DNA of 64,000 nucleotides from a bacterium (GTDB taxonomy: Bacteria; Actinomycetota; Acidimicrobiia; Spongiisociales; ZC4RG35): NCBI GenBank assembly GCA_028823995.1, contig JAPPFD010000002.1:53654-117653 (forward strand). The letters run 5' to 3'. The notes under the pieces were generated by a model. That model was not told the DNA's origin and did no database searches. It saw only the letters and a program-made list of their open reading frames with translations. The translations under genes and the position numbers were made by a program. Shown piece after piece: positions 23,144 through 56,670 of the stretch (position 1 is its first letter; each line of letters opens with the position of its first letter).

Positions 23144-26100
23144 CTATCCATCGGATCCTAGCAACTCGATCATCCCTTCAGGTAAACCAAAGCGTTCCGA
23201 TACCCTGACTTCCCTAAAACGGCTTGTCCTTCTTCCCAGGGATTCCTCAAGTAAGCTGACGTAGCGCCTTTGTGCACGATAGTCTCTTGCCGGCATCAAT
23301 GCCTTCAATGCTATCACAAACCCCGTTGCTTCATCACCCAGTAATCGATTGTTTTCCAATGTGTTAACTATTCTATTGAAGGCATCGCCGCGTGAACACC
23401 CGATATCTTGGGCAATGGATATCAGATCTTCCTTGCCGCCACCTAGCCAGACATTCTGTTGGCAGAGCTTGATCAACAGACCTGCTAGCTTTTCGTTCGG
23501 CTTGTCAAGCGCTTCGACTTTCTTGATCTCCAGTCCCAGATCGCCTAACTGCCCTCGTTCTGCTACTGCCCCCAGAACCGGCAACATCGCCGTGTCCCTA
23601 TTCAGAACATCGTAAGCTCTCCGCAAGACTTCAACACCATCGTCGACCAGTGACGAGTTACCAACGTGGCAGTCAAAGGAGGAGTGTCTTCTTCCCACGG
23701 TAAGAAATAGCTTTGCCCCAGCAGTTGGTGATTCACTGACCAAGTTAGCCAACACATGAAGGGGAACAGGCTGTCCCGCAGGAAGCACTCGATAAATCTC
23801 TTCTAATGTATCCACATCCGTCTGCCGTAAGGTAGGAAAGTCCTCTAAGCGTGCGGGGAAGGAGTAAAGGAACATTAACCAGTTGATAACTTCAGCAACG
23901 AACTGACGGGACCTACCGGAAGGCAAATTACTAAACAGTGGTATCACATCTTCTAAGGTTCTTCTATCCGCATCCATAATAAACATCGGATTAAAAACCT
24001 TCAACGGCGATAACGTTACTGGAAATCCAGTAGTCCCAATTCTCGCGTCGAACGGCAAACGCTGATCCGCCATTGAAAGCACATCTTCCCACACGATACC
24101 CTCATCGAACCAGCGAGTCTCGGCTGTGATCCAATCGTCTTGGTCGCCCAATCTCCCTTCTTTGGCTCCGTCTGCCAGCTCCAATAGCTTTTTCGCATCG
24201 GTACATGACTCCAGACACGCTACAATAGGCCACGGTAATGTTCGCCACACAGTCCTATTCGCTGCATGGTCCTCGTCAAAGGAGACCTTTGCAAAGGCCT
24301 TAAGTGTACTCGCTAACATATCTTTGGAAGGTGCCTCTAAGAATCTGCCAGCCCACTTATACGGTAGCCAACTGGGATGCCAGTCAGAAATCGCATTAAG
24401 CGTTTGCAAAACCGTCGCGCTACCAGGAGTCAACCGGTTAATTGGCCCGTAGGACAACATCGTATCTAAAACCGTGACTCTAGGGCCGCCGTGATGTCTA
24501 GGAGACTCCAGTATTGAAATCGCGGCTTTTAGGGTCGGGTCCACGTCCTGTCGCTCCAATAATGCCCTTCGTTTTTCTGACTGGAACACACCTACAAACG
24601 TACCAATGGGTGTCCTCGGAATTAGGCGCAGCACCTGCTCAGTTGCCCAACCGTTCTTAGTGTGGTCAGTGTCGGCTAACAGAATATCAACCTGGTCTTG
24701 GACGCCATTAGGCCAATAACTGTTTGCCATGTCGGTAGCCCAGTCGACGTCATTAGCGACAAGCGCAAGTAAACAATTCCAAGCTCCTAAGAACTTAACA
24801 TGGTCGCTACCTGTAAGTCGCAGCCCTAATTCGTCTCGGTAAATGGTCTCCATTTGAGAATCATACACATTAGCTAACTGTGCATGCAGACGGGGGTTGG
24901 CCTTATCCAGCGCTCTAATCGCCAGTCTCCCTAGCAGCGTTTTGTATTTCGGCTGCCGCCGTGCCGAACCCTCCTCTAGCAAGGCGATGGCCAGGTCCGC
25001 ACCCACTAAGTGCAAACCTTCCCCCTCGTTACCGTCTTCTTCATTCAAAGCGGCACAAGTTGAATGCACCAACTCGCGAAGCTCCTGCCGCTGAGCAAAA
25101 CATTTGCCCGCAGCAAACAAGAAAACGTTCCTCCAGAATGGGATGGGAGCTATTTCCTCTAATCGCGCCTGGATGTCGGGATAGGTGTCCTCCACTAAGC
25201 TCTCTGCCGCCATAAACTCTTGCAACGAGCGGATTTCAAATCCTATTCTCTCCGCTTCCATTTCGACCAAAAACACCAAACGCTCCGAGGCCGCTGCCAC
25301 GATCTGTTCGGCGATAGTGCGTCGATCCTCCTCCGGATGTTCCTCCGCCCTTAGCCGCGCTTCTACAAGAGACACAAATCGATGGCGATCCAACAAAGCG
25401 TCTGTTCTGCCTGTCCTTTCAGAGTCCACTTGAAGGATGAGGCCCACTTGGTTGTGGATAGTCCTAATGTCGGGTTCGTATTCACTCAATATCCTTGACG
25501 CAGAGATGTCCCTTTCCATTTCTCTGTCGTATATGACGTCGTAATATGAATTAAACAGATTCCAACGCGCTTGTGGAGGCTGCCCTAAACGATCTACCAA
25601 CGCAGTCATAATCGTTACCTGCAACGGTGTCCTCATCAAACGACTGGTTGATGGATCTCCAAAAGCCCGCCTTAACCGGCCTAACACCTTTTCTTTCCGA
25701 TCTTCGTCAGCACCATACCGGACTGCAGCGAGCCGCTGCGCATAATGCCAACCAAGTTGTTCCGACAACTCGGCCAGATGTTGGTGTTGGTAATACAGCG
25801 GTGAAAAGTCCTCATTGTAGCCTTGGGGGCGACTAGTCGCTATTGAGAGAATGTCCGCGTTAGCACTGCTGGCATCCACCCAGAACTCTCTAATGGCACG
25901 CAGAACTTCATCTCTGTTGCTTGAAGGTGGTACCTCATCTAATCCGTCAAAAATGAAGACACTTGGATAGACCGCGAGGAACTGACGTAGATCCGCCGGT
26001 GATACCTCGGCATCAGTGCGTCTCTTTATTTGTGATGACAAATAGCCAAGCACGGAGTATATTGGCGACTCCGAACTGGGAGCCAAAGCCTTGGCAAAAT

Positions 26101-27205
26101 CGTTTAATGTCAATTTAAAAGGAAAGCGAGGCACGACTTTATGCGAGATGTTTTCGCTTTCGCAATGGTGCTGAATCGTTCCTAAGGCACCCTTTGTGGG
26201 CGGAGACCATGTATGCTCAGGTTTTCTCGCGATGACCGCAGCACGGAAGATTTGGCAAATGAACTGCGTCAACGTAGTCTTTCCCTGACCTGGACCTCCG
26301 ATCAATACAAACCGCCCGCGGGATGCTCCAGCTAAACCTGCCTCAATGCGGTCTGGCACTGGAGAGGCACCCACAGAAGCAGGATCAAGACGTTCGGAAG
26401 ATGCGGCCAATACGTTTCTGATGAATCCTTCCTTAAGCTGAGGCCGGCCGACATCATTAAGATCCTCAAGGGCCTCGCCCAGCATATGTGACCTAATCAT
26501 ATTGGGCTCATGTTGAATAGGCAGGTCAACAAACACCGTGGCTAGAGGTATAGGTTCGTTTACAGTGTGACCAGCTTGCTCCAGATTGACGTACTCATCG
26601 CTTAGCAATTCCTTTTCCAAAAACCGCGTCATGGTAGTATGCATGTCAACCGATGCCGGTTTTAGTGTCGCAAAGGCGGCCGCGAGCACATCGCCTGGCG
26701 TTATGAAAGTGGAATAGGTGGTCCTAACTTCAGGATAAATGTCAAGGAATATGCGAATCTGGTCATAGTCCCATATGGCGTAGTCCTTGAGATGTGATTG
26801 CGATTTGAATTCCTTTAGAACGGCAAATGCCTTGTCTTTGGAACCTTTATCCTTTACTGGTGTTAGAACCACATTCGTAGCGTAAATGAAGAAATCAGGT
26901 GACCGTATGTTGGTGTCTGGGTCGGTATACTTTTGTAACTCGTCCCTTAGTTGCTCTACTGCCCATAGCCCGTCTTCATAGACATTGCCGGAACGCTGCC
27001 GGAATTTTGCCTGTACAACGCCATAACCATCCCAGCCATCTAAATGCGTGGGGTAAGGTACCTTCCGTTCGAAAGTCGCCTCTCGCCCACCGTCGGGGCC
27101 ATCCCCAAACACCACAATCCCAGGGCCCAAAACCTTAGCTGCTAACGCTTGAATCAACTGCTCAAACGAGCGGGGAGATAAAGTTGAAAGGTTGTAGTCA
27201 GCCAT
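23144..27205 (-). CDS. Bacterial NLR-like (bNACHT / Avs-like) STAND NTPase with an N-terminal Mrr-type restriction-endonuclease domain and a long C-terminal helical sensor-like region (1353 aa). Putative antiviral defence protein.
   Basis: Residues 1-70 match the Mrr_cat pattern (SFEQLIQAL...GDGPDGGRE...GVVQAKF). NACHT-type NTPase: Walker A at about aa 300-312 (FVLIGGPGQGKTT), Walker B (VFIFDGLDE) and the NACHT-specific TSR motif (ILSIATSRPQGY). About 750 C-terminal residues are helical-repeat-like. The gene is about 50% GC against a host background near 68%. Confidence 0.75.
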   Translation of the reverse strand: MADYNLSTLSPRSFEQLIQALAAKVLGPGIVVFGDGPDGGREATFERKVPYPTHLDGWDGYGVVQAKFRQRSGNVYEDGLWAVEQLRDELQKYTDPDTNIRSPDFFIYATNVVLTPVKDKGSKDKAFAVLKEFKSQSHLKDYAIWDYDQIRIFLDIYPEVRTTYSTFITPGDVLAAAFATLKPASVDMHTTMTRFLEKELLSDEYVNLEQAGHTVNEPIPLATVFVDLPIQHEPNMIRSHMLGEALEDLNDVGRPQLKEGFIRNVLAASSERLDPASVGASPVPDRIEAGLAGASRGRFVLIGGPGQGKTTLTQFICQIFRAAVIARKPEHTWSPPTKGALGTIQHHCESENISHKVVPRFPFKLTLNDFAKALAPSSESPIYSVLGYLSSQIKRRTDAEVSPADLRQFLAVYPSVFIFDGLDEVPPSSNRDEVLRAIREFWVDASSANADILSIATSRPQGYNEDFSPLYYQHQHLAELSEQLGWHYAQRLAAVRYGADEDRKEKVLGRLRRAFGDPSTSRLMRTPLQVTIMTALVDRLGQPPQARWNLFNSYYDVIYDREMERDISASRILSEYEPDIRTIHNQVGLILQVDSERTGRTDALLDRHRFVSLVEARLRAEEHPEEDRRTIAEQIVAAASERLVFLVEMEAERIGFEIRSLQEFMAAESLVEDTYPDIQARLEEIAPIPFWRNVFLFAAGKCFAQRQELRELVHSTCAALNEEDGNEGEGLHLVGADLAIALLEEGSARRQPKYKTLLGRLAIRALDKANPRLHAQLANVYDSQMETIYRDELGLRLTGSDHVKFLGAWNCLLALVANDVDWATDMANSYWPNGVQDQVDILLADTDHTKNGWATEQVLRLIPRTPIGTFVGVFQSEKRRALLERQDVDPTLKAAISILESPRHHGGPRVTVLDTMLSYGPINRLTPGSATVLQTLNAISDWHPSWLPYKWAGRFLEAPSKDMLASTLKAFAKVSFDEDHAANRTVWRTLPWPIVACLESCTDAKKLLELADGAKEGRLGDQDDWITAETRWFDEGIVWEDVLSMADQRLPFDARIGTTGFPVTLSPLKVFNPMFIMDADRRTLEDVIPLFSNLPSGRSRQFVAEVINWLMFLYSFPARLEDFPTLRQTDVDTLEEIYRVLPAGQPVPLHVLANLVSESPTAGAKLFLTVGRRHSSFDCHVGNSSLVDDGVEVLRRAYDVLNRDTAMLPVLGAVAERGQLGDLGLEIKKVEALDKPNEKLAGLLIKLCQQNVWLGGGKEDLISIAQDIGCSRGDAFNRIVNTLENNRLLGDEATGFVIALKALMPARDYRAQRRYVSLLEESLGRRTSRFREVRVSERFGLPEGMIELLGSDG

Positions 27206-28074: not shown

Positions 28075-29187
28075 GTGCTGTTTTATAGTATGTTGTCTGA
28101 CTGGGTGGCTTCGATGGAGATGCTTGTGGTGTTCCAGAGAGAGTGTCAGCGAATCTTTGCAGAGTTATCGGAGTGGAATGACGGCCATCCAGAGTGGCAG
28201 AAGATGTTTGGTGGATGGTTGGGGTTGATGTTTACAGCGGTGGTTTTGGCTGGGTCGGGATGGGCAGATCCGGTCCGGCTAGAGGAATTCCTGCGCCTTA
28301 TTGTGACTCCGCTAGCCGTTTTCTGGGGCTTTGGGGAGTATGGCAGAAGATGGCAGTCTGACGACCATCCCGGCGAGGTGGGGCCTTCTTCCGCTGAGGG
28401 TCGAGAAATCGATTGGCGGCGGACATTAGTAGGAGTGACCCACTTGGCAGGAATAGTTGCCGTCCTCGCCATCCTGATTCTTGTGGTTTTCGTTGATGGG
28501 CCTTCGGAACTGTGGACTGCGTTTGCCCCTGGAGTTCTCATTTTTGTGTGTCTAGCGATTACCAACGCTGTCGCTCGTGCAGTGGGCAGCAGGCCGGCCC
28601 GTTTCTCTGTTGCGCACACCGTGCCTGACGTCGGGAGGGGCCGAGTGCTGGCAGCCACGTTGATAGACAGTGTTATGGCGTGCGTATTTTCGCTTTTCCT
28701 GCTGATGATGCTCCTGGCGGCTTTGGCAGTAGAGGACCAGGTGGGTTCCGACATGCTGCCCTTTACAAACAAGGACTTGGGAAATTCCTTCGATGGCATC
28801 TGGATACCGTTGATGGTGTTCTTGGCAGTCTTCTTGGTGTACCGGTGGGTCGCCCTTCGGAGATGGGGATGTGGACTGGGTGGGCTTTCGATGCGATTGC
28901 AACTCCGTGACCACGGGGGCGAGAGGCCAGGACGGTTCAGGCTTCTCCTAAGGTGCGCATTCGATACTGTATGTATGGGTATGGCTGTGGCCGCGGTTGC
29001 GTTCCTCCCGGCCGATCGGGGGGTCCCGGCGATGGGCGCGGTTGTAGTGATCGCTGTTTGCGTTGGTACCAATGAAGGCAGAAGCCTGACCCATGTACTG
29101 TCGGGCACACAGTACGAACTGCGACAACGCGGTGGACCCAGCCAAAGATCGAACCCAAATGGCGGGATAGACCCACTTGAAACCTAG
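28075..29187 (+). CDS. Hypothetical polytopic membrane protein with an RDD-family-like C-terminal region
   Basis: At least 6 hydrophobic helices. The C-terminal segment resembles RDD-domain proteins (RWGCGLGGLSMRLQLRDHGG..RLLLRCAFD). Start uncertain. GC about 54%. Confidence 0.45.
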   Translation: MLFYSMLSDWVASMEMLVVFQRECQRIFAELSEWNDGHPEWQKMFGGWLGLMFTAVVLAGSGWADPVRLEEFLRLIVTPLAVFWGFGEYGRRWQSDDHPGEVGPSSAEGREIDWRRTLVGVTHLAGIVAVLAILILVVFVDGPSELWTAFAPGVLIFVCLAITNAVARAVGSRPARFSVAHTVPDVGRGRVLAATLIDSVMACVFSLFLLMMLLAALAVEDQVGSDMLPFTNKDLGNSFDGIWIPLMVFLAVFLVYRWVALRRWGCGLGGLSMRLQLRDHGGERPGRFRLLLRCAFDTVCMGMAVAAVAFLPADRGVPAMGAVVVIAVCVGTNEGRSLTHVLSGTQYELRQRGGPSQRSNPNGGIDPLET

Positions 29188-29541: not shown

Positions 29542-30759
29542 CTAGGCGGCGGGGTCGACCAGGCGTCCTATGAATAAGAAGGCGCCGGTTTCGGGGTGAA
29601 CGATGGCCCAGAGGAAGGGGCGGTCGGCGACCACCGTGAGGTCCGGTGGTGGTGGTGCTGACTCCTTGAAGGCCATGGCGGTGGCTGCAGCGGCTTCGGT
29701 GCCTTTCTCGTCGACGATCACCTTGGCGCCGTGGAGGGCGGCGGTGATGAAGATGCCCGGGGCGATGTCATCGAAAGGCGCTCCGGCGCAGAACCCCCGG
29801 GGGCAGAGCCACTCGAACAGGTCGGTGGGCGGCAGGGTTTGTTCCCACTTGGGCATGGTTAGATCGACAAAGCCCTGTTGGGCAATGTCCTCAAGGCCGG
29901 TCAGGTCCTGTGAGTCGAGCAATTCCTCGACCGCTGGAAGTCCTCCTGGGTCGTGGGGCACGATCAGCCACATGGCCAACCGGCCCCCCTGGTATGGGAG
30001 TTGTACCGCGTCGGCGCCGTCGAGTCGGACGAAGCGACGAGCGACCGGCTCCCGGTCGCGCATGAACGGTACCGTCACCGCGAGGCCGTCTCCGGTGGTG
30101 AACGGGCCATCTTCGGTCCACTCGGGGAGGAACGGCTCTGCCCAGTCGGCCTTCAGGTACACCGTGTTCACCAGGACCAGTTCCTGGCTTTGGACGGTCT
30201 GTTCGGTGACGATGGTGGGAACCAGACCGCGGGTGGTGTCCGATACCCATCCGTTGATGGTCTCGGCCGCCGACGCGCCGTCGTCGAGGTCGATCGGGTG
30301 GACCGCCGCTCCGTAGTGGGCGCCGGCAATCTCCAAGAAACCGGGCAGTGGAGAGAACTCGTCGTCGGGGAAGAGACGGTTGGCCACCTCCAGGGTGGTC
30401 GGTTCCACCGAGGCGGTGGCCAGCATCAGATCGACCGCATTGGCCGCAGGGTGAAGATCAAGCTCGGGGAACCCGAAGATCTCATCGAGCACCGCCCCGG
30501 TGTCTCCGGATGCGCCGGCCCGGCTGAGGCTGAAAGCCAAACCGAGGCTGACCGGACTGGAGACCGCGTTGCCCACCAGGTGGCGATGAAAGTCCCAGCC
30601 GGCCGCGTTGGCTCCGGCCACCCAATCCGCCGTCGGCGCCAGGGGATCGGCTGGCAGCCGGTCGGCCACCGGCTCCAACAACGTCGTGGTGGTGACCGAG
30701 GGACCGCATGCCGCGGTCAAGAAACACAGGAGAACGAGAAACCTGAGCAATTTTGTCAT
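29542..30759 (-). CDS. Serpin-family protease inhibitor, lipoprotein (bacterial serpin)
   Basis: ATG at 30759 (MTKLLRFLVLLCFLTAACG is a signal peptide plus lipobox). Serpin hinge GTEAAAAT, then the reactive-centre loop. C-terminal serpin signature (VADRPFLWAIVHPETGAFLFIGRLVDP). About 405 aa. Confidence 0.8.
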   Translation of the reverse strand: MTKLLRFLVLLCFLTAACGPSVTTTTLLEPVADRLPADPLAPTADWVAGANAAGWDFHRHLVGNAVSSPVSLGLAFSLSRAGASGDTGAVLDEIFGFPELDLHPAANAVDLMLATASVEPTTLEVANRLFPDDEFSPLPGFLEIAGAHYGAAVHPIDLDDGASAAETINGWVSDTTRGLVPTIVTEQTVQSQELVLVNTVYLKADWAEPFLPEWTEDGPFTTGDGLAVTVPFMRDREPVARRFVRLDGADAVQLPYQGGRLAMWLIVPHDPGGLPAVEELLDSQDLTGLEDIAQQGFVDLTMPKWEQTLPPTDLFEWLCPRGFCAGAPFDDIAPGIFITAALHGAKVIVDEKGTEAAAATAMAFKESAPPPPDLTVVADRPFLWAIVHPETGAFLFIGRLVDPAA

Positions 30760-31034
30760 AGCTTGTTCGATCGTAAGAAGAGCCTCAGAGAACCTCGTTG
30801 TCAACTCTAGAACGCGGCCTAGCAGATGTGCGGAGACCACATGGTCGGCTATTCGAAGGGACGCCGGGGCCAATCGAGGAGGACGGCCCACTTATCATCC
30901 TCGACCAATGGCCTCTTTGATTGACCACTTCTCTCCTCCAAAGCGCCCCTCAACGCGACTCGGGGAGGCGAAGTGTCACACCCCCTTCCCATGCTTGCTG
31001 CAAGCAGCATTCCAGCAGGGAGGAGGCCTACATC

Positions 31035-31784
31035 TTGAGTAACCGATCTGGGATCGAGTGGACTGAGACGACGTGGAACCCGACGACTGGTTGCGACCAG
31101 GTGTCCATGGGGTGTGACAACTGCTACGCGCTGACTTTCGCGAAGCGTCTCAAGGCCATGGGCCAACCCAAGTATCAGAACGACGGTGATCCTCGCACCA
31201 GCGGTCCCGGATTTGGACTCACCCTACACCCGGATGTCTTGGCCGAGCCAAGGCGATGGAGGGCGCCTAGGTTGGTGTTTGTGAACTCAATGAGCGACTT
31301 GTTTCATCCCGAAGTCCCTCTCGAGTTCATCCAAGAGGTGTTTAGTGTGATGGCCGAAACGCCACAGCACACCTACCAGATCCTTACCAAGCGTTCCAAG
31401 CGACTTGCATCTCTCGGGCCCCAGCTGGACTGGTCCCGAAATGTTTGGATAGGTGTCAGCGTTGAAACCAGTCGCTATGTCTTCCGCATCGACCACCTCA
31501 GAACCGTTCCTGCCGAAGTCCGCTTCATCAGTGCGGAACCTCTACTGGGTCCTCTTCCCAATCTGGATCTCTCGGGCATCCACTGGCTGATCGCAGGGGG
31601 AGAGAGCGGCCCCGGGGCAAGACCCATCGAAGAAGCATGGGTCCTCGACTTGCGGGATCAGTGTGCAGCCGCCGACGTAGCCTTCTTCTTCAAGCAGTGG
31701 GGAGGCCTCCACTCAAAATCCGGTGGCCGGGAACTTGATGGTGCTCTATATGACAATTTGCCATCACTCAGCAAGGCAAGCTAG
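31035..31784 (+). CDS. Phage Gp37/Gp68-family protein (DUF5131) with an N-terminal three-Cys motif
   Basis: TTG start at 31035 preceded by ggaggagg. N-terminal IEWTETTWNPTTGCDQVSMGCDNCYA matches the family hallmark (C-x6-C-x2-C). About 250 aa. Confidence 0.7.
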   Translation: MSNRSGIEWTETTWNPTTGCDQVSMGCDNCYALTFAKRLKAMGQPKYQNDGDPRTSGPGFGLTLHPDVLAEPRRWRAPRLVFVNSMSDLFHPEVPLEFIQEVFSVMAETPQHTYQILTKRSKRLASLGPQLDWSRNVWIGVSVETSRYVFRIDHLRTVPAEVRFISAEPLLGPLPNLDLSGIHWLIAGGESGPGARPIEEAWVLDLRDQCAAADVAFFFKQWGGLHSKSGGRELDGALYDNLPSLSKAS

Positions 31785-31798
31785 GCCGGGCCAACATT

Positions 31799-32785
31799 GT
31801 GCGGGTATGGGGATGCTGGACCAAAGGCAAGTTGGACATTCTGCGGCGGTATCTGGATGCCTTCACCACAACGACCAAGCACAAGTCAGATGAAAGGATT
31901 TATATTGATGCTTTCGCTGGTGAGCAGGAAAACCGACTTCGTCTGACAGATGAGCCTCTGGAAGGTTCGGCAAGAATTGCGTTATCAATTGAAGATCCAC
32001 CCTTCACCCGATTGCGTTTCTTTGAAACCGAAGCCAACGCATCCGCGCTTGAGTCATCGTTGAGGCGCGACTACCCAAACCGTGATCTGGAAGTGTTAGG
32101 TGGGGATTGTAATGAACTCATCCCCAGGGAACTTGCTCGGTTGCGGCGGCTCAATCGAGTTCCGACGTTCGCCTTTATTGACCCTAACGGTATGGAGGCG
32201 GAGTGGCGAACGTTAAAGGCATTGGCGCATTTCAAAGAGGGACACCGGTGGAAAGCCGAGATTCTCTACTACTTTGCACCGCCGATGTTTACGCGAGTAT
32301 TGCCGGTTGATGGCCAACCGGTCAGCAAGAAAAACGCTGCGAGAATTGATCGTCTCTACGGTACGAAGGACTGGCGTTTCATTTACGAGGCCCGCCTACG
32401 TTGTGCCTTAGAGCCTTGGCAAGCCCGACAAGAGTACCTCAATCTGATGAGATGGCGCATGGAAGAATCCTTAGGATATGAATGGACACTCCCGATTGAA
32501 GTTCGAAATGAGCGGGGCGTCGTCATCTATTACATGATCTTTGCCACTGATCACGAAGCGGGTGAACGCATAATGGGGAGCGTTTACGCTAAAGCTGCCG
32601 AAGAGTTTCCGATAATGCGCGAGAAGGCGCGAAGGATTCGCAAACAGGAAGAAAACAAAGAACGCGGCGTAACAAGCCTTTTCGGTGAGGACGATGGAGA
32701 ACTCTGGGGCCCAATTCTGCCAGGAGAACGGTTTTACGAACACGAGCCACCTACCAGGCCATGGTTCCTGCGCGAGTGCCCTTGA
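31799..32785 (+). CDS. Three-Cys-motif partner protein TcmP-like, with Rossmann/methyltransferase-like motifs
   Basis: Immediately downstream of the DUF5131 gene. N-terminal WTKGKLDILRRYLDAFTTT resembles the TcmP family start. IYIDAFAGEQ and FAFIDPNG resemble MTase motifs I and IV (weak). GTG start. About 48-50% GC. Confidence 0.55.
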   Translation: MRVWGCWTKGKLDILRRYLDAFTTTTKHKSDERIYIDAFAGEQENRLRLTDEPLEGSARIALSIEDPPFTRLRFFETEANASALESSLRRDYPNRDLEVLGGDCNELIPRELARLRRLNRVPTFAFIDPNGMEAEWRTLKALAHFKEGHRWKAEILYYFAPPMFTRVLPVDGQPVSKKNAARIDRLYGTKDWRFIYEARLRCALEPWQARQEYLNLMRWRMEESLGYEWTLPIEVRNERGVVIYYMIFATDHEAGERIMGSVYAKAAEEFPIMREKARRIRKQEENKERGVTSLFGEDDGELWGPILPGERFYEHEPPTRPWFLRECP

Positions 32786-32972: not shown

Positions 32973-33827
32973 TCAGTTCTGGTCCCCACCCACAAAGGAA
33001 GAAAGCACCTCCGGTATCGCCTCCCATGCAACCGAGCGGGTGAGACGATTCAGTGTTCCCACCCCCACACTCTTCTGTCCACCAAGTTCCTCATCGAGCA
33101 CTGAGGTTGGGACCACCCAAAATACCCAGCACAGTGGATCCTGAACATCCTTATTGGTTGCGGGTACGGTGTCATGAAGGCAGAACACATAAATGTCAGC
33201 CAGACGCCGGGGCGGATCGAAGGTTTGCCACTGGTCTGTGTCGGGATCCCATGCCATCTTCCTAGGCCTAATGTCGAATCTCGGTGTCGACATCTGTTCG
33301 AGGTTCCACGTCTGGCTGATTCCCGAGGCCTTGACTTCGATGGTGAGGTTGCGGTAGCGGAGATCATACGAGTTCCACTCGGTTCGATGGTCGGCGTCAT
33401 CAATGATGCCGAGTGCTTGACCGACCAGCCACTCGGCATATAAGCCTCTGTTGACGTTGTCAACAAGATTCCCGACGGCCCAACGGTTGAAGCTCCCGGG
33501 TGGAGGGCTGGGGGGAGGCTTAAGCCAAACAATGGGAATGTCAGGAGCAGCAGGCGACAACAAATCCATCGCGTGGTACATCTCATCCTGGTAGTAGAGC
33601 CACCAGCGCCCCATGGGCCCTCCTGCCCAGCTGTCAAACCCCAGTTCTATCCCGTTGCCAAGCTTGATAAGCGCTATGGCTTCGAATTCCCACCATTCGT
33701 TGTACCGGGGGCCGGCAAACAGTTGGGGGCCAAAGGCCAGGTAGGAATGCTCTCGCTCGATCAGCCGATATACAGCTACCGATCCTTTGGTGATCCTGTC
33801 GGGTTCTCCGTTGCGTTCTCTGTTCAT
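32973..33827 (-). CDS. Hypothetical protein with a C-terminal PD-(D/E)xK-nuclease-like signature
   Basis: The E...D...E-x-K arrangement (YAEWLVGQALG ... YDLRYRNLTIEVKASG ... DIYVFCLH) is typical of the restriction-endonuclease fold. Second gene of an operon with the HNH-DUF433 gene (ATGA overlap). Confidence 0.45.
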   Translation of the reverse strand: MNRERNGEPDRITKGSVAVYRLIEREHSYLAFGPQLFAGPRYNEWWEFEAIALIKLGNGIELGFDSWAGGPMGRWWLYYQDEMYHAMDLLSPAAPDIPIVWLKPPPSPPPGSFNRWAVGNLVDNVNRGLYAEWLVGQALGIIDDADHRTEWNSYDLRYRNLTIEVKASGISQTWNLEQMSTPRFDIRPRKMAWDPDTDQWQTFDPPRRLADIYVFCLHDTVPATNKDVQDPLCWVFWVVPTSVLDEELGGQKSVGVGTLNRLTRSVAWEAIPEVLSSFVGGDQN

Positions 33828-34384
33828 AGAGTCTTGGCCCTAACGGTTCGCAGAAGCTCGATCTGACGGTCGATGATCCGCTCGGCATCCGACATCTCGA
33901 TGCCCTCGTAGCAATCCAGGAACTGGTCGAGGGTTATGCCTTCGTTGAGCTCCTCGAATAGCTCGGCAATAGGCAACCAAGTACCGGCAAATACCCACTC
34001 ACCGCTAAGACGGTCCGTACGTCTCTCAACAGCTCCGCATGTTTCCCAGATCGACTGGCGTTGTTCTGAGGACTTGCCGAATTGCCTCACTACAAGGGGT
34101 GGCTGCCACCCGCAACCGCAATTCCGCTCGGCCGCGAGGCGACGCTCTGGTGATCGGTAGTCAATGGGTTGATCGGTTTTCCGTCGATTGCAAGTTTGGC
34201 AGAGGGTTTGGAGGTTGTTCCAACAGTCTGGCCCGTCAGCGGCTTGCGGGACTATGTGGTCGATCTCAAGATCCTGGGAGCTTCCGCAAGAAAGGCATTG
34301 ATCCCCATCGAGACTGAACACCCGTTCGCGACGTCCCTTCTTTTTACTCATACGTGGGAATCTTAACGAGCGGGTGTGACGCAT
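33824..34384 (-). CDS. HNH endonuclease fused to a C-terminal DUF433 domain
   Basis: HNH motif CLSCGSSQDLEIDHIVPQAADGPDCWNNLQTLCQTCNRRK. C-terminal GTWLPIAELFEELNEGITLDQFLDCYEGIEMSDAERIID matches DUF433. The likelier start is ATG at 34351 (MSKKKGRR). Confidence 0.7.
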   Translation of the reverse strand: MRHTRSLRFPRMSKKKGRRERVFSLDGDQCLSCGSSQDLEIDHIVPQAADGPDCWNNLQTLCQTCNRRKTDQPIDYRSPERRLAAERNCGCGWQPPLVVRQFGKSSEQRQSIWETCGAVERRTDRLSGEWVFAGTWLPIAELFEELNEGITLDQFLDCYEGIEMSDAERIIDRQIELLRTVRAKTL

Positions 34385-40434: not shown

Positions 40435-41087
40435 CCACAGGCGTCACCTTCATCACCGAAGCACTACGGCTTCCGGGCGCGATTGCCGAGTTGTCGCGGA
40501 CACTGCGGAGTCTCGGCGACGCCGGCTGGCTGCTGGATCCCCAGCACATCGCCGGCCGGCGGGAGACCGGCGCGCCCACCGTCTACTGGTCCGAGCCCTT
40601 CGGAGACACCGCCGCGTTCGGCCTGTTCGAAGCGCCGGGTCTCGAGGAGGCGCACCGGGGAATCAGCGAGTTGGTGAAAGCTGGCTGGGGGTGGATGTTC
40701 GGACGGACCCAGTGGATCGTGGGGCCCCGCGACCTTCCCCCGTCGCTGGGTGAAGGACCGTTCGAGCAGGGTCTGGGGTTCCTGGCGCTGTGGGATTGGA
40801 ACGACGCCTGGCACAGCGCAACGCCCGAGGAGCGGGCCGTTTACGACCGCGACTGCGATGTGGCGTTCGCATACGACGTGGAGTTGGGGATCGACATTTT
40901 CGGCCGCTTCGACACCGCCGGGACCTCGGACTGGGACCATGCGGCGTTGTGGGAGGTGCCGGACCTTCCGACCCTCACCGAAGCCATGCACGGACACGAG
41001 ATCCAGGACGACTTCATGTTCACCACGTCTTACCATCTCATCGGGCGCCCTATCGCCTTCGACCGATTGGAGGAACAGCTCCAGTGA
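40431..41087 (+). CDS. Hypothetical protein (218 aa), translationally coupled to the sugar ABC permease genes
   Basis: ATG overlapping the permease stop (ATGA). No confident family; it may consist of two small alpha+beta domains. Confidence 0.4.
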   Translation: MTTGVTFITEALRLPGAIAELSRTLRSLGDAGWLLDPQHIAGRRETGAPTVYWSEPFGDTAAFGLFEAPGLEEAHRGISELVKAGWGWMFGRTQWIVGPRDLPPSLGEGPFEQGLGFLALWDWNDAWHSATPEERAVYDRDCDVAFAYDVELGIDIFGRFDTAGTSDWDHAALWEVPDLPTLTEAMHGHEIQDDFMFTTSYHLIGRPIAFDRLEEQLQ

Positions 41088-41401
41088 TCACATGGATACA
41101 CACCTACCGCCCGCGGCCCGACTGGTACGAGGCCACCAGGCAAGCCCGGGACCGGTTGCTCGCCGGCTGGGACGGCGCAGCTTCGGTCTCGATCGAATCC
41201 GGCGCCACCCGGGTGGGTCCGCTGTCGATCCGCGGCCAGTCCCGCCAGGAGCACCTGGAGATCTGGACCTTCACCGACCTAGAGGAACTCGAGAACCACT
41301 GGACCCGGCTCCGGAAGCTTGGCTACGCCGATTGGCGGGAGTCCGAGAACACCGTCGCCACCGAGATCGTCGAGAGCAGGCTCACCGGACCGGCACACTG
41401 A
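41084..41401 (+). CDS. Hypothetical small protein (105 aa)
   Basis: GTG start overlapping the upstream stop (GTGA), with GGAGG about 10 nt upstream. No confident family. Confidence 0.4.
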   Translation: MITWIHTYRPRPDWYEATRQARDRLLAGWDGAASVSIESGATRVGPLSIRGQSRQEHLEIWTFTDLEELENHWTRLRKLGYADWRESENTVATEIVESRLTGPAH

Positions 41402-41464
41402 GGGTCCGGGTCCCTAAGTTGCCCTGAGTCCCCGGCGTCGAAACCGACGGGCGCCGTGGTCCAG

Positions 41465-41794
41465 TTAGCCCGTTTGTGCAGCAGGAACCTTGGCAAGCCG
41501 CTCGGAAATGCGGTCCTGGGTGGTCTCAAGATCGTATTGGCTCTGCAATCCCATCCAGAACCCCGGAGAATTACCGAAGAAGCGAGCCAGCAGCAAAGCG
41601 GTCTCGGCTGTAATGGCCCGGTCACCATGGACGATGGAGTGAATCCGCCTGGCGTCCACTCCGATAGCTTTGGCCAGCCGGTACTGAGTGATTTTCATGG
41701 GAACGAGGAACTCCTCGTTCAGGATTTCACCCGGGTGGATCGGGGGTAGTTTCGACTCGGTGGTCATCTGGGCCTCGACTTCAGTGGTAGTCAA
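41465..41794 (-). CDS. higA: HigA-family antitoxin (XRE-type HTH)
   Basis: PIHPGEILNEEFLVPMKITQYRLAKAIGVDARRIHSIVHGDRAITAETALLLARFFGNSPGFWMGLQSQYDL is a near-textbook HigA sequence. Start may be the second ATG (41767). Confidence 0.75.
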   Translation of the reverse strand: MTTTEVEAQMTTESKLPPIHPGEILNEEFLVPMKITQYRLAKAIGVDARRIHSIVHGDRAITAETALLLARFFGNSPGFWMGLQSQYDLETTQDRISERLAKVPAAQTG

Positions 41795-42086
41795 CTATCT
41801 CGACTTGGTAGGCGTTGCCGTCGCTCCATAGGAAGCAGATCCGCCATTGATCGTTGATGCGGATGCTGTGCTGTCCGGCACGATCTCCCGACAGAGCTTT
41901 CAGCCGGTTCCCCGGCGGAATCCGAAGGTCCTCGAGATTCATGGCATTGTTCAGGATCATCAGTTTTCTCTGTGCTCGCCTCTGGATGTCCTCAGGCAGT
42001 TTCCGGACGCGACGACGCTCGGCGACCGCCTGGGTGTCTCTGTTCCGGTAGCTCCGGATCACAGCACTCGAATAATAGCGCGCCAC
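41781..42086 (-). CDS. higB: HigB-family toxin (RelE/ParE superfamily; plasmid-maintenance-system killer protein)
   Basis: VIRSYRNRDTQAVAERRRVRKLPEDIQRRAQRKLMILNNAMNLEDLRIPPGNRLKALSGDRAGQHSIRINDQWRICFLW matches HigB. Sits upstream of higA in the same orientation. Alternative GTG start at 42062 gives the canonical 94 aa. Confidence 0.7.
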   Translation of the reverse strand: MARYYSSAVIRSYRNRDTQAVAERRRVRKLPEDIQRRAQRKLMILNNAMNLEDLRIPPGNRLKALSGDRAGQHSIRINDQWRICFLWSDGNAYQVEIVDYH

Positions 42087-42328
42087 ACTATTAGTGGCAA
42101 GTACAAATGCCTATGCCTTGGTGAATTCTCCAAAAGATAGCCGAAGGATGGGCGGCGGGTTCGCCAGCCCTACGGAAAGGGTGGCAGGCTCAGCCGGGAG
42201 CCCTTACCCGGTATCCCCGGGGTGGTGGTTGCCCCATGACAGGTAACCATCCGCATGCCAGACACCGGATGCATTACCCCCTGATGGCCAGGAACAACTC
42301 GGCCGGTTCCGGTAAGTACCATCGAGAC

Positions 42329-43330
42329 ATGTCCGAGGGCAGCTTCGGGGTGATTCTGCCGAGCAACCACATCAGGGAAGCGATTCCATTGGCCAAGTGG
42401 GCGGATGCCGAGTCCGTCGACTCGCTCTGGACCATCGAAACCCGGCTGACAGGAGATGCGATCACCCCACTCTCGGTGTACGCAGCCAATACGGCCCGTA
42501 TCCGCGTGGGTACCGCCGGAATCCCCATCTGGACGCGGAATCCCGCGTTGATCGCTCAGACATTCGCGACACTTCATGCGCTGGCGCCCGGGCGATTGGT
42601 GCTCGGTCTGAGCGCCTGGTGGGACCCGTTGGCGACTCGCGTGGGTCTCAGCCTCCACAAGCCCGTTAAGGCCATGCACGAGGTCATCGAATCGATCCGG
42701 CTTCTTCTTACTGCAGAGGGTCCGGTGAGTTACGCCGGCGAATTCGTCCGGCTACGGGATGTTCTGCTGGAGAACCGGGGTGAAGATACGCACAAGATCC
42801 GAATCTACGTAGGCGCCGTGGGCCCTCAGCTTCTGCGTTTGGCCACCCGCGTGGCGGATGGCATCGTATTGAACGGCGGTCACACCGTGGCCGTAATCCG
42901 CCGCGAGGTTGAGGTGATCCGCGAGGAGGCGATGAAGGTGGGCCGCCCCTTTGACGAGATTGAGATTCTCAAGATGATGCGGATCCGTGTCGATGACAAC
43001 AAGCAGCGGGCGATTGCAGGGCACAAGCCGGATGTTGCACGCTACATAGCCGAACAAGCCCACATCGCCCGGTCATCTGAAGCCGATCCCGAGCTTGTAA
43101 CCCGTCTGAGATCGATGATGTCCTGGCCTTCATCCGAGAGCGAGGCCGTCAGGGCTGCTGGCCTGATCCCAGATAGTCTCGTCGAAAGCCTCGGGTGTTA
43201 CGGTGACCCCCAAGAGGTGCGCGAGAGACTCCGGGAGTACATGGCGGCTGGTATCACGAAGCCTCTGCTCCTACCCGATAACATCACGTACATGCGCCGA
43301 GCGGTAGACCTGATGCTGGAAGGCTGGTGA
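42329..43330 (+). CDS. Luciferase-like (LLM-class) flavin/F420-dependent oxidoreductase
   Basis: ATG at 42329 (MSEGSFGVILPS) in ORF 42236..43330. LLM TIM-barrel pattern. Paralog of the gene at 47387. Confidence 0.7.
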   Translation: MSEGSFGVILPSNHIREAIPLAKWADAESVDSLWTIETRLTGDAITPLSVYAANTARIRVGTAGIPIWTRNPALIAQTFATLHALAPGRLVLGLSAWWDPLATRVGLSLHKPVKAMHEVIESIRLLLTAEGPVSYAGEFVRLRDVLLENRGEDTHKIRIYVGAVGPQLLRLATRVADGIVLNGGHTVAVIRREVEVIREEAMKVGRPFDEIEILKMMRIRVDDNKQRAIAGHKPDVARYIAEQAHIARSSEADPELVTRLRSMMSWPSSESEAVRAAGLIPDSLVESLGCYGDPQEVRERLREYMAAGITKPLLLPDNITYMRRAVDLMLEGW

Positions 43331-43412
43331 CTTGACGCCTCCATGCTGTACACCGCGCCGGAAGAGCATGGCCGACTAGCCATCCACGGACGCCGTAGCG
43401 AAGGGTGACGCT

Positions 43413-45385: not shown

Positions 45386-45609
45386 GAGGACAGTCCGGCG
45401 ATTCGGTTGCGCAAGCTCGCCAACCGCCGAGTCCGTTCACTCCTTTACGCCACCAGACTCAACTGGGACGTCCCAGCATCGGTATTCCTCAGTGAGTCCG
45501 ATGAGTCTTCAAACACCGATTATGGAAAATATGTTGCATCTTCCAAGGCTGGCATCCGATTGTTGCGTTAGGGTTTCTGATAGCCCAATCCCGATTTGGA
45601 GATTTCATA

Positions 45610-47349: not shown

Positions 47350-47386
47350 CGAGCAGTCACGGAAAAGCCTGAGAACGCGTCGCTCG

Positions 47387-48385: not shown

Positions 48386-48403
48386 CCTGAACAGTCACTT
48401 CCG

Positions 48404-49219: not shown

Positions 49220-49341
49220 AAATCGTGGCCCCGGGGTATGACACCCTTACACGAAGAGGGTGTTCGGTCGTGAGCCGGCGTCCTGGCCACGGCGAAAGTG
49301 GACTCGAAGGGTACGCGAACAGTACCCGGTGCGGTGGCTGA

Positions 49342-50481: not shown

Positions 50482-50643
50482 ATACTCGAATGTGGATCAC
50501 GCACCAACTCACCTGCAAAAGGAAGCATCCTGGGGGCTCACCAACACAACGACCAGCTCAAAGTCGACACGAGAGTTCACGGAAACACTATTCTCAACTC
50601 ACACTGAGGTAGGTTGTCCATCCTGAATAGGAGGTCTGGCCGG

Positions 50644-52442: not shown

Positions 52443-52460
52443 CCAAGCCCAACCTTCGAT

Positions 52461-55674: not shown

Positions 55675-55763
55675 CGGCTCATGGGATTCCGGTGGGGAGG
55701 TTGACCGTCAATCTCTGAGAGCCTCCGGGTGTCAAGGTGTGTCGGTTCCGCAACTGGTGGCGG

Positions 55764-56594: not shown

Positions 56595-56670
56595 GGGTGT
56601 CTCCCCTCAATGTAGGGCGCAGGACCCTCGTCCCGCTATTCAGTCTTCGTAACACCCTACCGCGGCCTTG

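What the first reader, a model, noticed from the sequence alone, without database searches (positions are those of the whole stretch)
29542..30759. Lipoprotein serpin inside the accessory region
A complete serpin (hinge GTEAAAAT, C-terminal FLWAIVHPETGAFLFIGR signature) with a lipoprotein signal peptide. Bacterial serpins are sporadic and usually horizontally acquired. A surface-anchored protease inhibitor next to defence genes is unusual. Its GC is closer to the host than its neighbours, so it may predate the flanking insertions. The reactive-centre loop (AMAFKESAPPPP) does not indicate an obvious P1, so the target protease class is unclear.
Basis: partly seen in the sequence, partly recalled or inferred. 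Interest (0 to 1): 0.5.

Follow-up and report, generated by a model that had tools for sequence, protein, structure and literature searches.

The report
Membrane-anchored serpin of a sponge symbiont
The gene is a genuine, intact, lipid-anchored protease inhibitor (serpin), but it is an ordinary resident gene of a large serpin family in sponge-symbiotic Acidimicrobiia that happens to sit at the edge of a hotspot where defence genes come and go.

Summary
Observation confirmed. Window 29542-30759 (-) encodes a 405-aa serpin (Pfam PF00079, E 1e-66) with a lipoprotein signal peptide (lipobox TAAC, Cys18), the inhibitory hinge EKGTEAAAA and intact shutter and breach residues. A confident AlphaFold model has the native serpin fold with a disordered reactive loop.

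The gene is not a sporadic acquisition. It belongs to a family of more than 120 close relatives (66-90% identity), one to four or more copies per genome, found here only in Acidimicrobiia MAGs, many named as sponge associates. The family is under purifying selection (dN/dS about 0.29) and the gene's composition matches core genes. The defence genes beside it differ in every relative, so the adjacency is positional, not functional. Lipoprotein anchoring is usual in this bacterial serpin clade (64 of 99 outgroup representatives) and is known from miropin.

By count and alignment the canonical P1-P1' is Ser367-Ala368. Phe364, Ser367 and Pro370 are fixed, while P5, P3 and P1' evolve fast and P2 and P4' moderately. 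Paralogues differ mainly at P3, P2 and P1'. The target protease remains unknown, and no protease gene is linked.

Sister clades carry an ECF-sigma-type promoter 8-9 nt before the start codon; the window's clade has a different conserved upstream element. Verdict: new member of a known kind, modest interest.

The parts
29542..30759 (-). Serpin coding sequence: 405 aa plus stop, pre-prolipoprotein.
   Evidence: ORF. Pfam PF00079 E 1.1e-66. An identical protein, P0001, is in NCBI nr. The AF2 model has pLDDT 92.4. Foldseek gives TM 0.79-0.86 to native serpins.
30709..30759 (-). Signal peptide, residues 1-17 (MTKLLRFLVLLCFLTAA): basic n-region (K3, R6), hydrophobic core, lipobox L-T-A-A preceding Cys18.
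   Evidence: Read directly from the sequence. Conserved in nearly all full-length family members. This is a rule-based call only; SignalP and LipoP were not available.
30706..30708 (-). Cys18, the predicted lipidated N-terminal residue of the mature protein.
   Evidence: Invariant column C18 in alignment A1.
30625..30705 (-). Thr/Pro/Asp-rich tether, residues 19-45, between the lipid anchor and the serpin domain.
   Evidence: Relatives carry insertions of up to about 57 aa here, of T/P/D/E-rich sequence, in the 33-member alignment; longer family members (up to 534 aa) are listed. pLDDT is low at the N-terminus of the model.
29545..30624 (-). Serpin domain, residues 46-405.
   Evidence: Pfam match covers residues 63-403. 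42 of 54 canonical conserved serpin positions are identical to alpha1-antitrypsin, including S53, S56, N186, W194 and H334 (the alpha1-AT sequence was verified).
29683..29709 (-). Hinge P17-P9, E351-KGTEAAAA-359.
   Evidence: Matches the inhibitory consensus ExGTEAAAA (cited). P17, P15-P12 show no non-synonymous change despite 5-19 synonymous changes per codon across 79 CDS; P16 and P11-P9 show 1-4.
29644..29682 (-). Bait region of the reactive-centre loop, residues 360-372 (TAMAFKESAPPPP). Canonical P1-P1' is Ser367-Ala368.
   Evidence: By count from P17 and by HMMER alignment to conserpin, S367 aligns with the P1 Arg. F364, S367 and P370 are fixed. P3 (K365) has dN/mean dS 1.36 (rank 4 of 360), P5 1.11 and P1' 0.99. 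The only segment of the model with pLDDT below 50 is residues 357-367.
29788..29805 (-). Family-specific invariant Cys pair C319/C324 (WLCPxGFC), a possible disulfide.
   Evidence: Invariant columns.
30760..30812 (-). Conserved non-coding 5' element (TTCTAGAGTT...CGAGGTTCTCTGAGGC...) immediately upstream of the start codon; probably a promoter or operator.
   Evidence: Conserved upstream of the serpin copies aligned from the window's clade, including tandem paralogues, while sequence further upstream is unrelated. The motifs occur only upstream of serpin genes, apart from two 2-mismatch hits elsewhere, in 1.6 Mb of loci. No conserved RNA structure, no Rfam family and no sigma-70 consensus match.

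Best explanation
The gene encodes a functional inhibitory serpin made as a lipoprotein.

Export and anchoring (inferred from the signal sequence): after Sec export, Cys18 is lipidated and the signal peptide is removed. The roughly 41-kDa serpin is then tethered to the outer face of the cytoplasmic membrane of this Gram-positive-type Acidimicrobiia cell by a 27-residue Thr/Pro-rich linker.

Inhibition (inferred from the standard serpin mechanism, for which all sequence requirements are present): the exposed reactive-centre loop acts as bait. An attacking endopeptidase cleaves at or next to Ser367, at the canonical P1-P1' bond Ser367-Ala368 or the adjacent Glu366-Ser367 or Lys365-Glu366 bonds. 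It is trapped as an acyl-enzyme while the hinge EKGTEAAAA inserts into beta-sheet A.

Genomic status (shown): the gene is a long-resident member of a multi-copy family in sponge-associated Acidimicrobiia, not cargo of the adjacent islands. It marks the stable edge of a hotspot where defence systems and mobile elements are exchanged.

Likely role (inferred, not shown): protecting the symbiont's surface from exogenous proteases in the sponge mesohyl, from the host or from other community members. Paralogues cover different specificities through P3/P2/P1' variation.

Regulation: in sister clades, expression is probably driven by an ECF sigma factor from a promoter that gives a leaderless or near-leaderless mRNA. 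The window's own clade has a different, uncharacterised conserved upstream element.
For: Serpin identity and completeness:
- Pfam E 1.1e-66.
- 195 PDB serpin chains matched, best conserpin at 5e-38.
- 42 of 54 canonical residues conserved, including shutter, breach and hinge.
- AF2 pLDDT 92.4, pTM 0.90, with only the RCL disordered.
- Foldseek top hits include many native-state serpins, TM 0.79-0.86.

Inhibitory type: exact ExGTEAAAA hinge, with no non-synonymous change at P17 and P15-P12 and only 1-4 at P16 and P11-P9.

Lipoprotein: the lipobox and Cys18 are conserved family-wide, followed by a variable-length tether.

Resident gene:
- GC and GC3 equal to core genes.
- More than 120 relatives at 66-100% identity.
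- 131 genomic relatives, the best 80 all in Acidimicrobiia MAGs, many named Ca. Poriferisodalis, Poriferisocius, Spongiisocius or Aldehydirespirator. Several copies occur per chromosome and tandem pairs are common.
- Family dN/dS about 0.29.

Hotspot:
- The same serpin sits beside RDD plus a 1353-aa ORF here.
- Beside CBASS in L002.
- Beside NB-ARC plus type I R-M in L003/L004.
- Beside an IS3 transposase, DUF4062 and DUF499 in L085.
- Beside Vsr, Dcm, a HATPase_c_3-domain protein (possibly MORC-like) and an R-M system in L086.

RCL diversification: P3, P5 and P1' are among the fastest-evolving codons, between fixed F364, S367 and P370. Tandem paralogues differ mainly there.

No linked protease: none appears in the top 25 Pfam families of 146 immediate neighbours.

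Precedents:
- Miropin is a surface lipoprotein serpin that uses the P2-P1 bond and inhibits both serine and cysteine proteases.
- Secreted serpins are expanded in thaumarchaeal sponge symbionts.

ECF-type promoter: GG[GA]AAC-N17/18-CGTC, then mostly 8-9 nt, then ATG or GTG, lies upstream of 48 of 87 copies. Only 105 such motifs occur in 3.15 Mb. The consensus matches actinobacterial sigE/sigH GGAACC-N16-CGTT and the ECF AAC/CGTC rules.
Against: - There are no biochemical data. Inhibition, the scissile bond and the target class are all inferred.
- Canonical P1 = Ser is unusual for a serine-protease inhibitor.
- The loop is 3 residues longer than in alpha1-antitrypsin on the P' side.
- Lipoprotein status rests on a rule-based reading, because SignalP and LipoP were not available. 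Surface exposure through the cell wall is assumed.
- The host-protection role is an analogy. An endogenous target encoded elsewhere in the genome cannot be excluded, since only 21-kb loci were examined.
- The window's own copy lacks the ECF-type motif, so its regulation is unknown.
- Sponge association of the relatives is taken from organism names and MAG labels, not from sample metadata. One relative (SZUA-35) may come from a non-sponge habitat.
Confidence: 0.75

Rival explanations
1. The serpin regulates the bacterium's own secreted or surface protease (endogenous control), as proposed for the serpins next to S8A subtilases in thaumarchaeal sponge symbionts.
For: Thaumarchaeal sponge-symbiont serpins are often adjacent to S08A endopeptidases. 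Bacterial serpins regulating their own proteases is a standard hypothesis. Only about 10 kb on each side of each locus was examined here.
Against: No protease family appears among the 25 most frequent Pfam families of 146 immediate neighbours in about 75 loci. No endopeptidase lies near the gene in the window. The nearest peptidase is a cytoplasmic-type DPP-IV 26 kb away. Diversification of the RCL among tandem paralogues fits varied external targets better than one housekeeping partner.
Confidence: 0.2
2. The serpin is a component of, or functionally coupled to, the neighbouring anti-phage defence genes (the DUF5131-TcmP pair, the 1353-aa ORF and others).
For: The serpin is physically adjacent to DUF5131 in the window, L002, L003/L004 and L086. 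DUF5131 and TcmP match the PADLOC candidate system PDC-M41.
Against: The serpin itself has no PADLOC match. The gene is transcribed divergently from DUF5131. TcmP and the other cargo are absent or different in close relatives. Most family members lie in metabolic contexts such as ECH, P450 and permeases. The serpin's composition is core-like while the defence genes are 8-15 GC points lower. An exported lipoprotein also cannot act on intracellular phage processes.
Confidence: 0.03
3. It is a non-inhibitory serpin-fold protein (binding protein, chaperone or remnant) that has lost protease-trapping activity.
For: Canonical P1 is Ser, followed by a Pro-rich P' side (APPPP), which is atypical. The loop is longer than in alpha1-antitrypsin. 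There are no functional data.
Against: The hinge matches the inhibitory consensus exactly and is almost free of non-synonymous change. Non-inhibitory serpins characteristically have bulky or charged hinge residues (established knowledge; Hopkins 1993 and Irving 2000, as cited). Shutter and breach residues are intact. The bait positions evolve fast between fixed anchors, as expected for a loop that is being 'read' by proteases.
Confidence: 0.07

Closest known systems
Miropin (Tannerella forsythia serpin, PDB 5NCS family)
   Same: Both are bacterial serpins synthesised as lipoproteins and displayed at the cell surface. Both have the inhibitory hinge and no single obvious P1. Miropin uses several bonds, including the canonical P2-P1 bond, and inhibits both serine and cysteine proteases. 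It is thought to shield the cell from host and community proteases.
   Different: The sequence relationship is only distant (a PDB serpin entry 5ncs, assumed from memory to be miropin, at E 2.7e-24, no closer than eukaryotic serpins). Miropin is from a diderm Bacteroidota and is anchored in the outer membrane, whereas this protein is from a monoderm-type Actinomycetota. The RCL sequences are unrelated (VKT versus FKESAPP). Multi-site inhibition is not shown here.
Expanded secreted serpins of thaumarchaeal sponge symbionts (Ca. Nitrosospongia ianthellae, Cenarchaeum symbiosum)
   Same: Both are multi-copy I4 serpins with export signals in sponge symbionts. The same proposed roles apply: control of sponge or symbiont proteases and avoidance of digestion.
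   Different: They belong to a different domain of life, and the sequence relationship was not tested here. The archaeal genes are often next to S8A proteases, whereas the family here has no linked protease. The family here is lipid-anchored and, in most clades, carries an ECF-type promoter.
Actinobacterial and other bacterial serpins of groups T and U (thermopin, Bifidobacterium longum serpin, tengpin, chloropin)
   Same: They share the fold and the inhibitory hinge. Tengpin and chloropin are among the structural matches (TM 0.79-0.83). Bacterial serpins commonly carry N-terminal export signals. The nearest outgroups here are an Actinomycetota and an Anaerolineales MAG.
   Different: Identity to any characterised member is 22-28%. 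Chloropin has an obvious P1 Arg, unlike this protein. The family-specific Cys319/Cys324 pair and the F-x-E-S-[AG]-P-P bait are not described for those proteins.
SCCA1 (SERPINB3), a cross-class inhibitor of papain-like cysteine proteases
   Same: From memory, not tested: SCCA1 has Ser at canonical P1, an aromatic residue just upstream (Phe352) that serves as P2 for cathepsins, and a Pro on the P' side. This resembles F364-x-E-S367-[AG]-P here. SERPINB3/B4 chains are among the PDB sequence matches.
   Different: The aromatic-to-Ser spacing differs by one residue. There is no evidence here for cysteine-protease inhibition. This is a lead for choosing assay proteases, not a classification.

Membership tests
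Serpin superfamily (Pfam PF00079 / MEROPS I4) | Full-length serpin domain and fold | tested here: met
   Pfam 226 bits against a cut-off of 27, covering profile 21-370 of 370. AF2 pLDDT 92.4. Foldseek TM 0.79-0.86 to native serpins.
Serpin superfamily (Pfam PF00079 / MEROPS I4) | Conserved shutter and breach residues (alpha1-AT S53, S56, N186, W194, H334 and others) | tested here: met
   42 of 54 canonical positions are identical and most of the rest are conservative, both in the window protein and across 107 family members. The list of positions was recalled from Irving et al. 2000. The alpha1-AT sequence was verified against PDB.
Inhibitory serpins | Hinge P17-P9 = ExGTEAAAA (small residues at P12-P9, Thr/Ser at P14) | tested here: met
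   E351-K-G-T-E-A-A-A-A359 is an exact match. The consensus is as cited. Purifying selection on these codons is strong.
Inhibitory serpins | RCL length such that P1 lies 17 residues from P17, and an identifiable P1 | tested here: inconclusive
   The count gives P1 = Ser367, which aligns with conserpin's P1 Arg. Ser is an atypical P1, and the neighbouring bonds K365-E366 and E366-S367 are equally possible, as for miropin's P2-P1 site.
Inhibitory serpins | Formation of a covalent SDS-stable complex with a protease; stressed-to-relaxed transition | not testable with these tools
   Requires recombinant protein and protease assays.
Bacterial lipoproteins (Lgt/LspA substrates) | Signal peptide with a basic n-region, a hydrophobic h-region and a lipobox [LVI..][ASTVI..][GAS]-C | tested here: met
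   The N-terminus reads MTKLLRFLVLLCFLTAA-C18. It fits the PROSITE PS51257-type rule as recalled from memory and is conserved in the family. SignalP and LipoP were not run because they were unavailable.
Bacterial lipoproteins (Lgt/LspA substrates) | Actual diacylglyceryl modification and signal peptidase II cleavage; surface exposure | not testable with these tools
   Needs lipid labelling, globomycin treatment and localisation experiments.
Anti-phage defence system component | Match to a known defence protein model, or conserved co-occurrence with defence genes | tested here: not met
   The serpin has no PADLOC hit. The neighbouring defence cargo differs in every relative. Most family members lie in non-defence contexts.
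ECF-sigma regulon member | -35 GGAAC / -10 CGT(C/T) promoter at the proper spacing upstream of the gene | tested here: not met
   The feature is met for 48 of 87 family copies (consensus). The window's own copy and its clade lack it and carry a different conserved element.

The most novel reading that the evidence does not exclude
The family is a dedicated symbiosis factor: a stress-inducible (ECF-sigma-driven, leaderless) coat of membrane-tethered serpins that lets sponge-symbiotic Acidimicrobiia survive host phagosomal or digestive and immune proteases. This may include cross-class inhibition of cathepsin-L-like cysteine proteases through the fixed Phe364. Paralogue RCLs (P3/P2/P1') would then diversify in an arms race with host or community proteases. 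The gene also anchors a defence-island integration hotspot.
Probability: 0.2. Interest if true: 0.6.

Novelty: new member of a known kind. Interest (0 to 1): 0.3.

Why it matters
For the scan itself the finding is ordinary: a correctly spotted serpin gene that NCBI already labels 'serpin family protein' in relatives.

The wider family is of modest ecological interest. Serpin expansion has been reported for archaeal sponge symbionts. I found no report for the abundant acidimicrobial symbionts in the searchable literature.

A lipid-anchored family that is probably ECF-controlled, with a diversifying bait loop, gives a concrete and testable candidate for how these bacteria resist sponge or community proteases. 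It also offers recombinant inhibitors of unknown specificity.

The locus is a clean example of a conserved gene marking a defence-island hotspot, which is useful for mining new defence systems in these genomes.

Tried and rejected
- AlphaFold with only close family members (33 sequences, at least 71% identity) gave pLDDT 50 and was discarded. A diverse 108-sequence alignment fixed this.
- NCBIfam has no model for the protein, and PADLOC has no match for it.
- The sigma-70 promoter and terminator scan found nothing meaningful around the gene. There are no tRNA genes in the window that could mark an integration site.
- Rfam gave only one sub-threshold chance hit (Prion_pknot, 26 bits against 39) inside the RCL coding region.
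- RNAalifold on the conserved 5' element gave -0.88 kcal/mol with no covariation, so an RNA-structure explanation was dropped.
- The S9 peptidase proposed as a target is a DPP-IV-type exopeptidase with no signal peptide and was rejected.
- The upstream GTG 30891 start (449 aa) was rejected on homology and on in-frame stops in relatives.
- A search for the other boundary of the island (the MFS, PNP and ABC genes at 18-23 kb) in relatives found nothing within their 10-kb flanks, so island size could not be compared.
- The supplements of the Actinobacteriota sponge comparative-genomics paper are not held, so prior reporting of serpin enrichment there could not be checked.
- Names for the nearest outgroup clusters were mostly absent.
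- Model coordinates are not exposed, so the Cys319-Cys324 distance could not be measured.
Full report
**1. What is there**

The minus strand carries an ORF at 29542..30891. Three lines of evidence support this start over the upstream GTG:
- Almost all of 120 relatives begin MTKLL.
- Six close relatives have an in-frame TAG or TAA two codons upstream of the homologous ATG.
- An identical 405-aa protein is deposited in NCBI (P0001).

The window is part of a 331-kb scaffold from an ENA metagenome assembly (ROBB21-1, SAMN13943213), probably from a sponge.

**2. Serpin identity and integrity**

- Pfam PF00079 scores 226 bits (E 1.1e-66) over essentially the whole profile.
- phmmer finds 195 PDB serpin chains. 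The best is conserpin at E 5e-38.
Of 54 canonical conserved serpin positions, 42 are identical. These include shutter S53, S56, N186 and H334, breach W194, and hinge E342, G344, T345, E346, A347 and A348. Most of the rest are conservative changes, and the same holds in 107 family members.
- The hinge E351-KGTEAAAA-359 matches the inhibitory consensus ExGTEAAAA exactly (consensus as cited).
- A first AlphaFold run with a shallow alignment failed (pLDDT 50). With 108 diverse serpins the model reached pLDDT 92.4 and pTM 0.90.
- The only stretch of the model below pLDDT 50 is residues 357-367, which is the exposed reactive-centre loop.
- Foldseek top hits include many native-state serpins: antithrombin, iripin-4, tengpin and chloropin, with TM 0.79-0.86.

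**3. Lipoprotein signal**

The N-terminus has basic residues (K3, R6), a hydrophobic core and the lipobox L-T-A-A-C18. Cys18 is invariant in the 33-sequence family alignment. It is followed by a tether rich in Thr, Pro, Asp and Glu whose length varies among relatives, with insertions of up to about 57 residues in the 33-member alignment.

This is a rule-based call, because SignalP and LipoP were not available. Lipoprotein anchoring is not unusual for this part of the superfamily. Of 99 cluster representatives at 52% identity or less, 64 also carry a lipobox. Miropin of Tannerella forsythia is an experimentally confirmed surface lipoprotein serpin.

**4. The reactive-centre loop**

By counting from P17, and by the HMMER alignment to conserpin and conserpin-AAT, Ser367 is the canonical P1 and Ala368 the P1'. 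The loop is three residues longer than in alpha1-antitrypsin on the P' side.

Across 107 family proteins the positions behave as follows:

| Position | Residue in window | Behaviour across the family |
|---|---|---|
| P4 | Phe364 | essentially invariant |
| P1 | Ser367 | essentially invariant |
| P3' | Pro370 | essentially invariant |
| P3 | Lys365 | 6th most variable of 360 positions |
| P5, P1', P4' | Ala363, Ala368, Pro371 | variable |
| P2 | Glu366 | Glu in 87 of 107; otherwise A, T, K, S, V, R or Q |

A parsimony count of substitutions on a neighbour-joining tree of 79 coding sequences gives the following:
- The family-wide dN/dS is about 0.29.
- P17 and P15-P12 have no non-synonymous change; P16 and P11-P9 have 1-4.
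- Ser367 has 14 synonymous and 0 non-synonymous changes.
- Pro370 has 21 synonymous and 0 non-synonymous changes.
- dN over mean dS is 1.36 at P3 (rank 4 of 360), 1.11 at P5 and 0.99 at P1'.

This count is rough and is not a formal test. Tandem paralogues that are 73-89% identical overall differ mainly at P3, P2 and P1'. Examples are AFNESAGP versus AFATSEGP, and AFAESGPP versus FPTSMPPP.

The pattern fits a bait loop with fixed anchor residues and specificity positions that diverge between copies. The scissile bond cannot be assigned from sequence. There are three candidates:
- Ser367-Ala368, the canonical bond.
- Glu366-Ser367, one residue shorter. Miropin uses its P2-P1 bond in this way.
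- Lys365-Glu366, two residues shorter, with Phe364 as P2. This is the geometry papain-like cysteine proteases prefer. The SCCA1 analogy behind it is recalled from memory.

The F-x-E-S-[AG]-P-P core also appears in several more distant bacterial lipoprotein serpins at 37-43% identity. It is therefore not specific to this family.

**5. Family and distribution**

The protein search returned more than 120 relatives at 66-100% identity, mostly 405 aa. Where named, they are Acidimicrobiia, Acidimicrobiaceae or Candidatus Spongiisocius.

A scan of one genome per species found 131 relatives. The best 80 are all in Acidimicrobiia MAGs. Many are named Ca. Poriferisodalis, Poriferisocius, Spongiisocius or Aldehydirespirator(aceae). 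The Poriferisodalaceae and Aldehydirespiratoraceae are the two clades described as containing the sponge-symbiont acidimicrobial lineages.

Copy number is one to at least four per chromosome; for example, four loci lie on OZ244836.1. Tandem pairs are common. The nearest outgroups that carry names are an Actinomycetota MAG (52%) and an Anaerolineales MAG (43%).

The gene is therefore a lineage-wide, vertically maintained, duplicating family. It is not a sporadic recent acquisition. I found no paper describing serpins in acidimicrobial sponge symbionts. Expansion of secreted serpins in thaumarchaeal sponge symbionts is published, with the same functional speculation.

**6. Genomic context**

Window neighbours:

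| Coordinates (strand) | Gene | Notes |
|---|---|---|
| 23144-27205 (-) | 1353-aa ORF | no Pfam domain, 50% GC, weak N-terminal REase-like PADLOC hit |
| 28075-29187 (+) | RDD membrane protein | |
| 29542-30759 (-) | serpin | |
| 30921-31784 (+) | DUF5131 | divergent from the serpin; matches PADLOC candidate PDC-M41 |
| 31799-32785 (+) | TcmP | matches PADLOC candidate PDC-M41 |
| 32973-33827 (-) | 284-aa unknown | |
| 33824-34384 (-) | HNH-DUF433 | |
| from 34603 (+) | GntR, PfkB, BtpA, solute-binding protein (SBP), ABC permeases | core sugar-utilisation operon |

The serpin's composition is that of the core genes. The flanking genes are 8-15 GC points lower.

Among close relatives (84-90% identical serpins), the GntR-PfkB-BtpA-SBP block recurs on one side in L006, L007 and L009 and partly in L013/L086, with variable inserts between it and the serpin; L008 and L085 have different upstream genes. 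The other side differs in every genome examined:

| Locus | Genes on the variable side |
|---|---|
| L002 | CBASS (patatin, DncV-like, E2) |
| L003/L004 | NB-ARC protein plus type I R-M; serpin duplicated in tandem |
| L085 | IS3 transposase, DUF4062-TPR, DUF499 |
| L086 | Vsr, Dcm, a HATPase_c_3-domain protein (possibly MORC-like), methylase plus restriction enzyme |

More distant family members lie in unrelated metabolic contexts.

Among 146 immediate neighbours of about 75 loci, the commonest Pfam families are ECH (13), P450 (11) and ArsP (7). No protease family is in the top 25.

I conclude that the serpin marks the stable edge of a defence and mobile-element integration hotspot, and that it has no functional tie to the cargo.

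**7. Regulation (found in passing)**

In most of the family, the start codon is preceded by tCGGGAACC-N16/17-(G)CGTC, followed mostly by 8-9 nt and then ATG or GTG. This arrangement lies upstream of 48 of 87 copies. Only 105 such motifs exist in 3.15 Mb of both strands of the loci. The true fraction is probably higher, because long linkers put some start codons outside the search window.

The motif matches the actinobacterial sigE/sigH consensus GGAACC-N16-CGTT. It also fits the general ECF rule of AAC at -35 and CGTC at -10. Its position implies a leaderless or nearly leaderless mRNA, and no Shine-Dalgarno sequence is present.

The window's clade (12 copies at 80% identity or more) lacks this motif. 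It has its own conserved element of about 53 nt, TTCTAGAGTT...CGAGGTTCTCTGAGGC... at 30760-30812. Its motifs occur only upstream of serpin genes, apart from two 2-mismatch hits elsewhere, in 1.6 Mb of loci. The element shows no conserved RNA structure, no Rfam match and no sigma-70 consensus match. What recognises it is unexplained.

**8. Mechanism and verdict**

Shown: the gene is an intact serpin of inhibitory type with a conserved lipoprotein signal. It is under purifying selection, has a diversifying bait loop, is resident in the genome, and belongs to a multi-copy family seen here only in Acidimicrobiia MAGs.

Inferred: lipidation at Cys18, tethering outside the membrane, and suicide-substrate trapping of an exogenous endopeptidase that cleaves at or next to Ser367. 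A protective role in the sponge mesohyl is also inferred.

The S9 peptidase suggested as a target is a cytoplasmic-type DPP-IV exopeptidase and is rejected.

Rival readings are less likely: an endogenous protease regulator (about 0.2), a non-inhibitory serpin (about 0.07) and a defence-system component (about 0.03).

The finding is a new member of a known kind. It is correct as an observation, over-read as 'unusual', and of modest interest, mainly to sponge-symbiosis research.

Noticed in passing
loci L005, L014-L084 (e.g. L014:9959-10003; L073:9959-10003): Most serpin genes of the sister clades are preceded by a stereotyped ECF-sigma-type promoter: GGGAACC, 17 nt, CGTC, mostly 8-9 nt, then the ATG or GTG start. 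It lies upstream of 48 of 87 copies, and only 105 such motifs occur in 3.15 Mb. This implies ECF control and a leaderless or near-leaderless mRNA.
   Followed up: partly
window 30760-30812 (-): The window's clade carries a different conserved 5' element (TTCTAGAGTT...CGAGGTTCTCTGAGGC) in place of the ECF-type motif. Its motifs occur only upstream of serpin genes, apart from two 2-mismatch hits elsewhere, in 1.6 Mb of loci and it travels with tandem duplicates. It has no RNA structure, Rfam hit or sigma-70 match. What recognises it is unknown.
   Followed up: partly
window 23144-27205 (-): A 1353-aa ORF with 50% GC (GC3 51%) has no Pfam or NCBIfam domain. It has only a weak N-terminal PADLOC hit to an Argonaute-associated REase-TIR model (E 2e-6). 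It is absent from all 84 related loci and is a candidate novel defence protein in the variable side of the hotspot.
   Followed up: partly
window 30921-32785 (+): A DUF5131 (Gp37/Gp68-like; PF07505 E 3e-97) and TcmP (TIGR04474 E 4e-52) gene pair matches the PADLOC candidate system PDC-M41. It is present in L002/L006, but only DUF5131 remains in L003/L008, L007 and L086.
   Followed up: partly
window 32973-34384 (-): A two-gene unit with overlapping stop and start: an HNH endonuclease fused to DUF433 (186 aa) followed by a 284-aa protein with no domain hit. It is conserved in L006 and L010. In L002 the gene call retains only the DUF433 part.
   Followed up: no
L003/L004/L008, L010, L026, L054, L070, L072: Tandem or near-tandem serpin duplicates occur whose RCLs fall into distinct types (x-E-S-[AG]-P versus P-T-S-[ML]-P versus R-K-S-[IL]-P). 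Linkers after the lipobox are expanded by T/P/D/E-rich repeats, giving proteins of up to 534 aa.
   Followed up: partly
proteins P0134, P0143, P0145, P0149 and others: The representative search lists many proteins of 700-1150 aa with two to four separate serpin-matching stretches. These appear to be multi-serpin fusion proteins, at about 26-32% identity to the query. Their origin is unknown.
   Followed up: no
window 56671-58965 (-): The 'S9 peptidase' is a DPP-IV-type protein (DPPIV_N plus Peptidase_S9) of 764 aa without an N-terminal signal peptide. An acetoacetate decarboxylase-family gene lies next to it at 55764-56594.
   Followed up: yes
window 41000-57000: A long stretch has about 60% GC against about 67% for the flanking core. 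It was not examined and may be a second accessory region.
   Followed up: no
window 29788-29805 (-): An invariant family-specific Cys pair (C319, C324, in WLCPxGFC) sits in a shortened loop after helix I. It could be a stabilising disulfide in the exported protein. This could not be checked because model coordinates are not exposed.
   Followed up: partly
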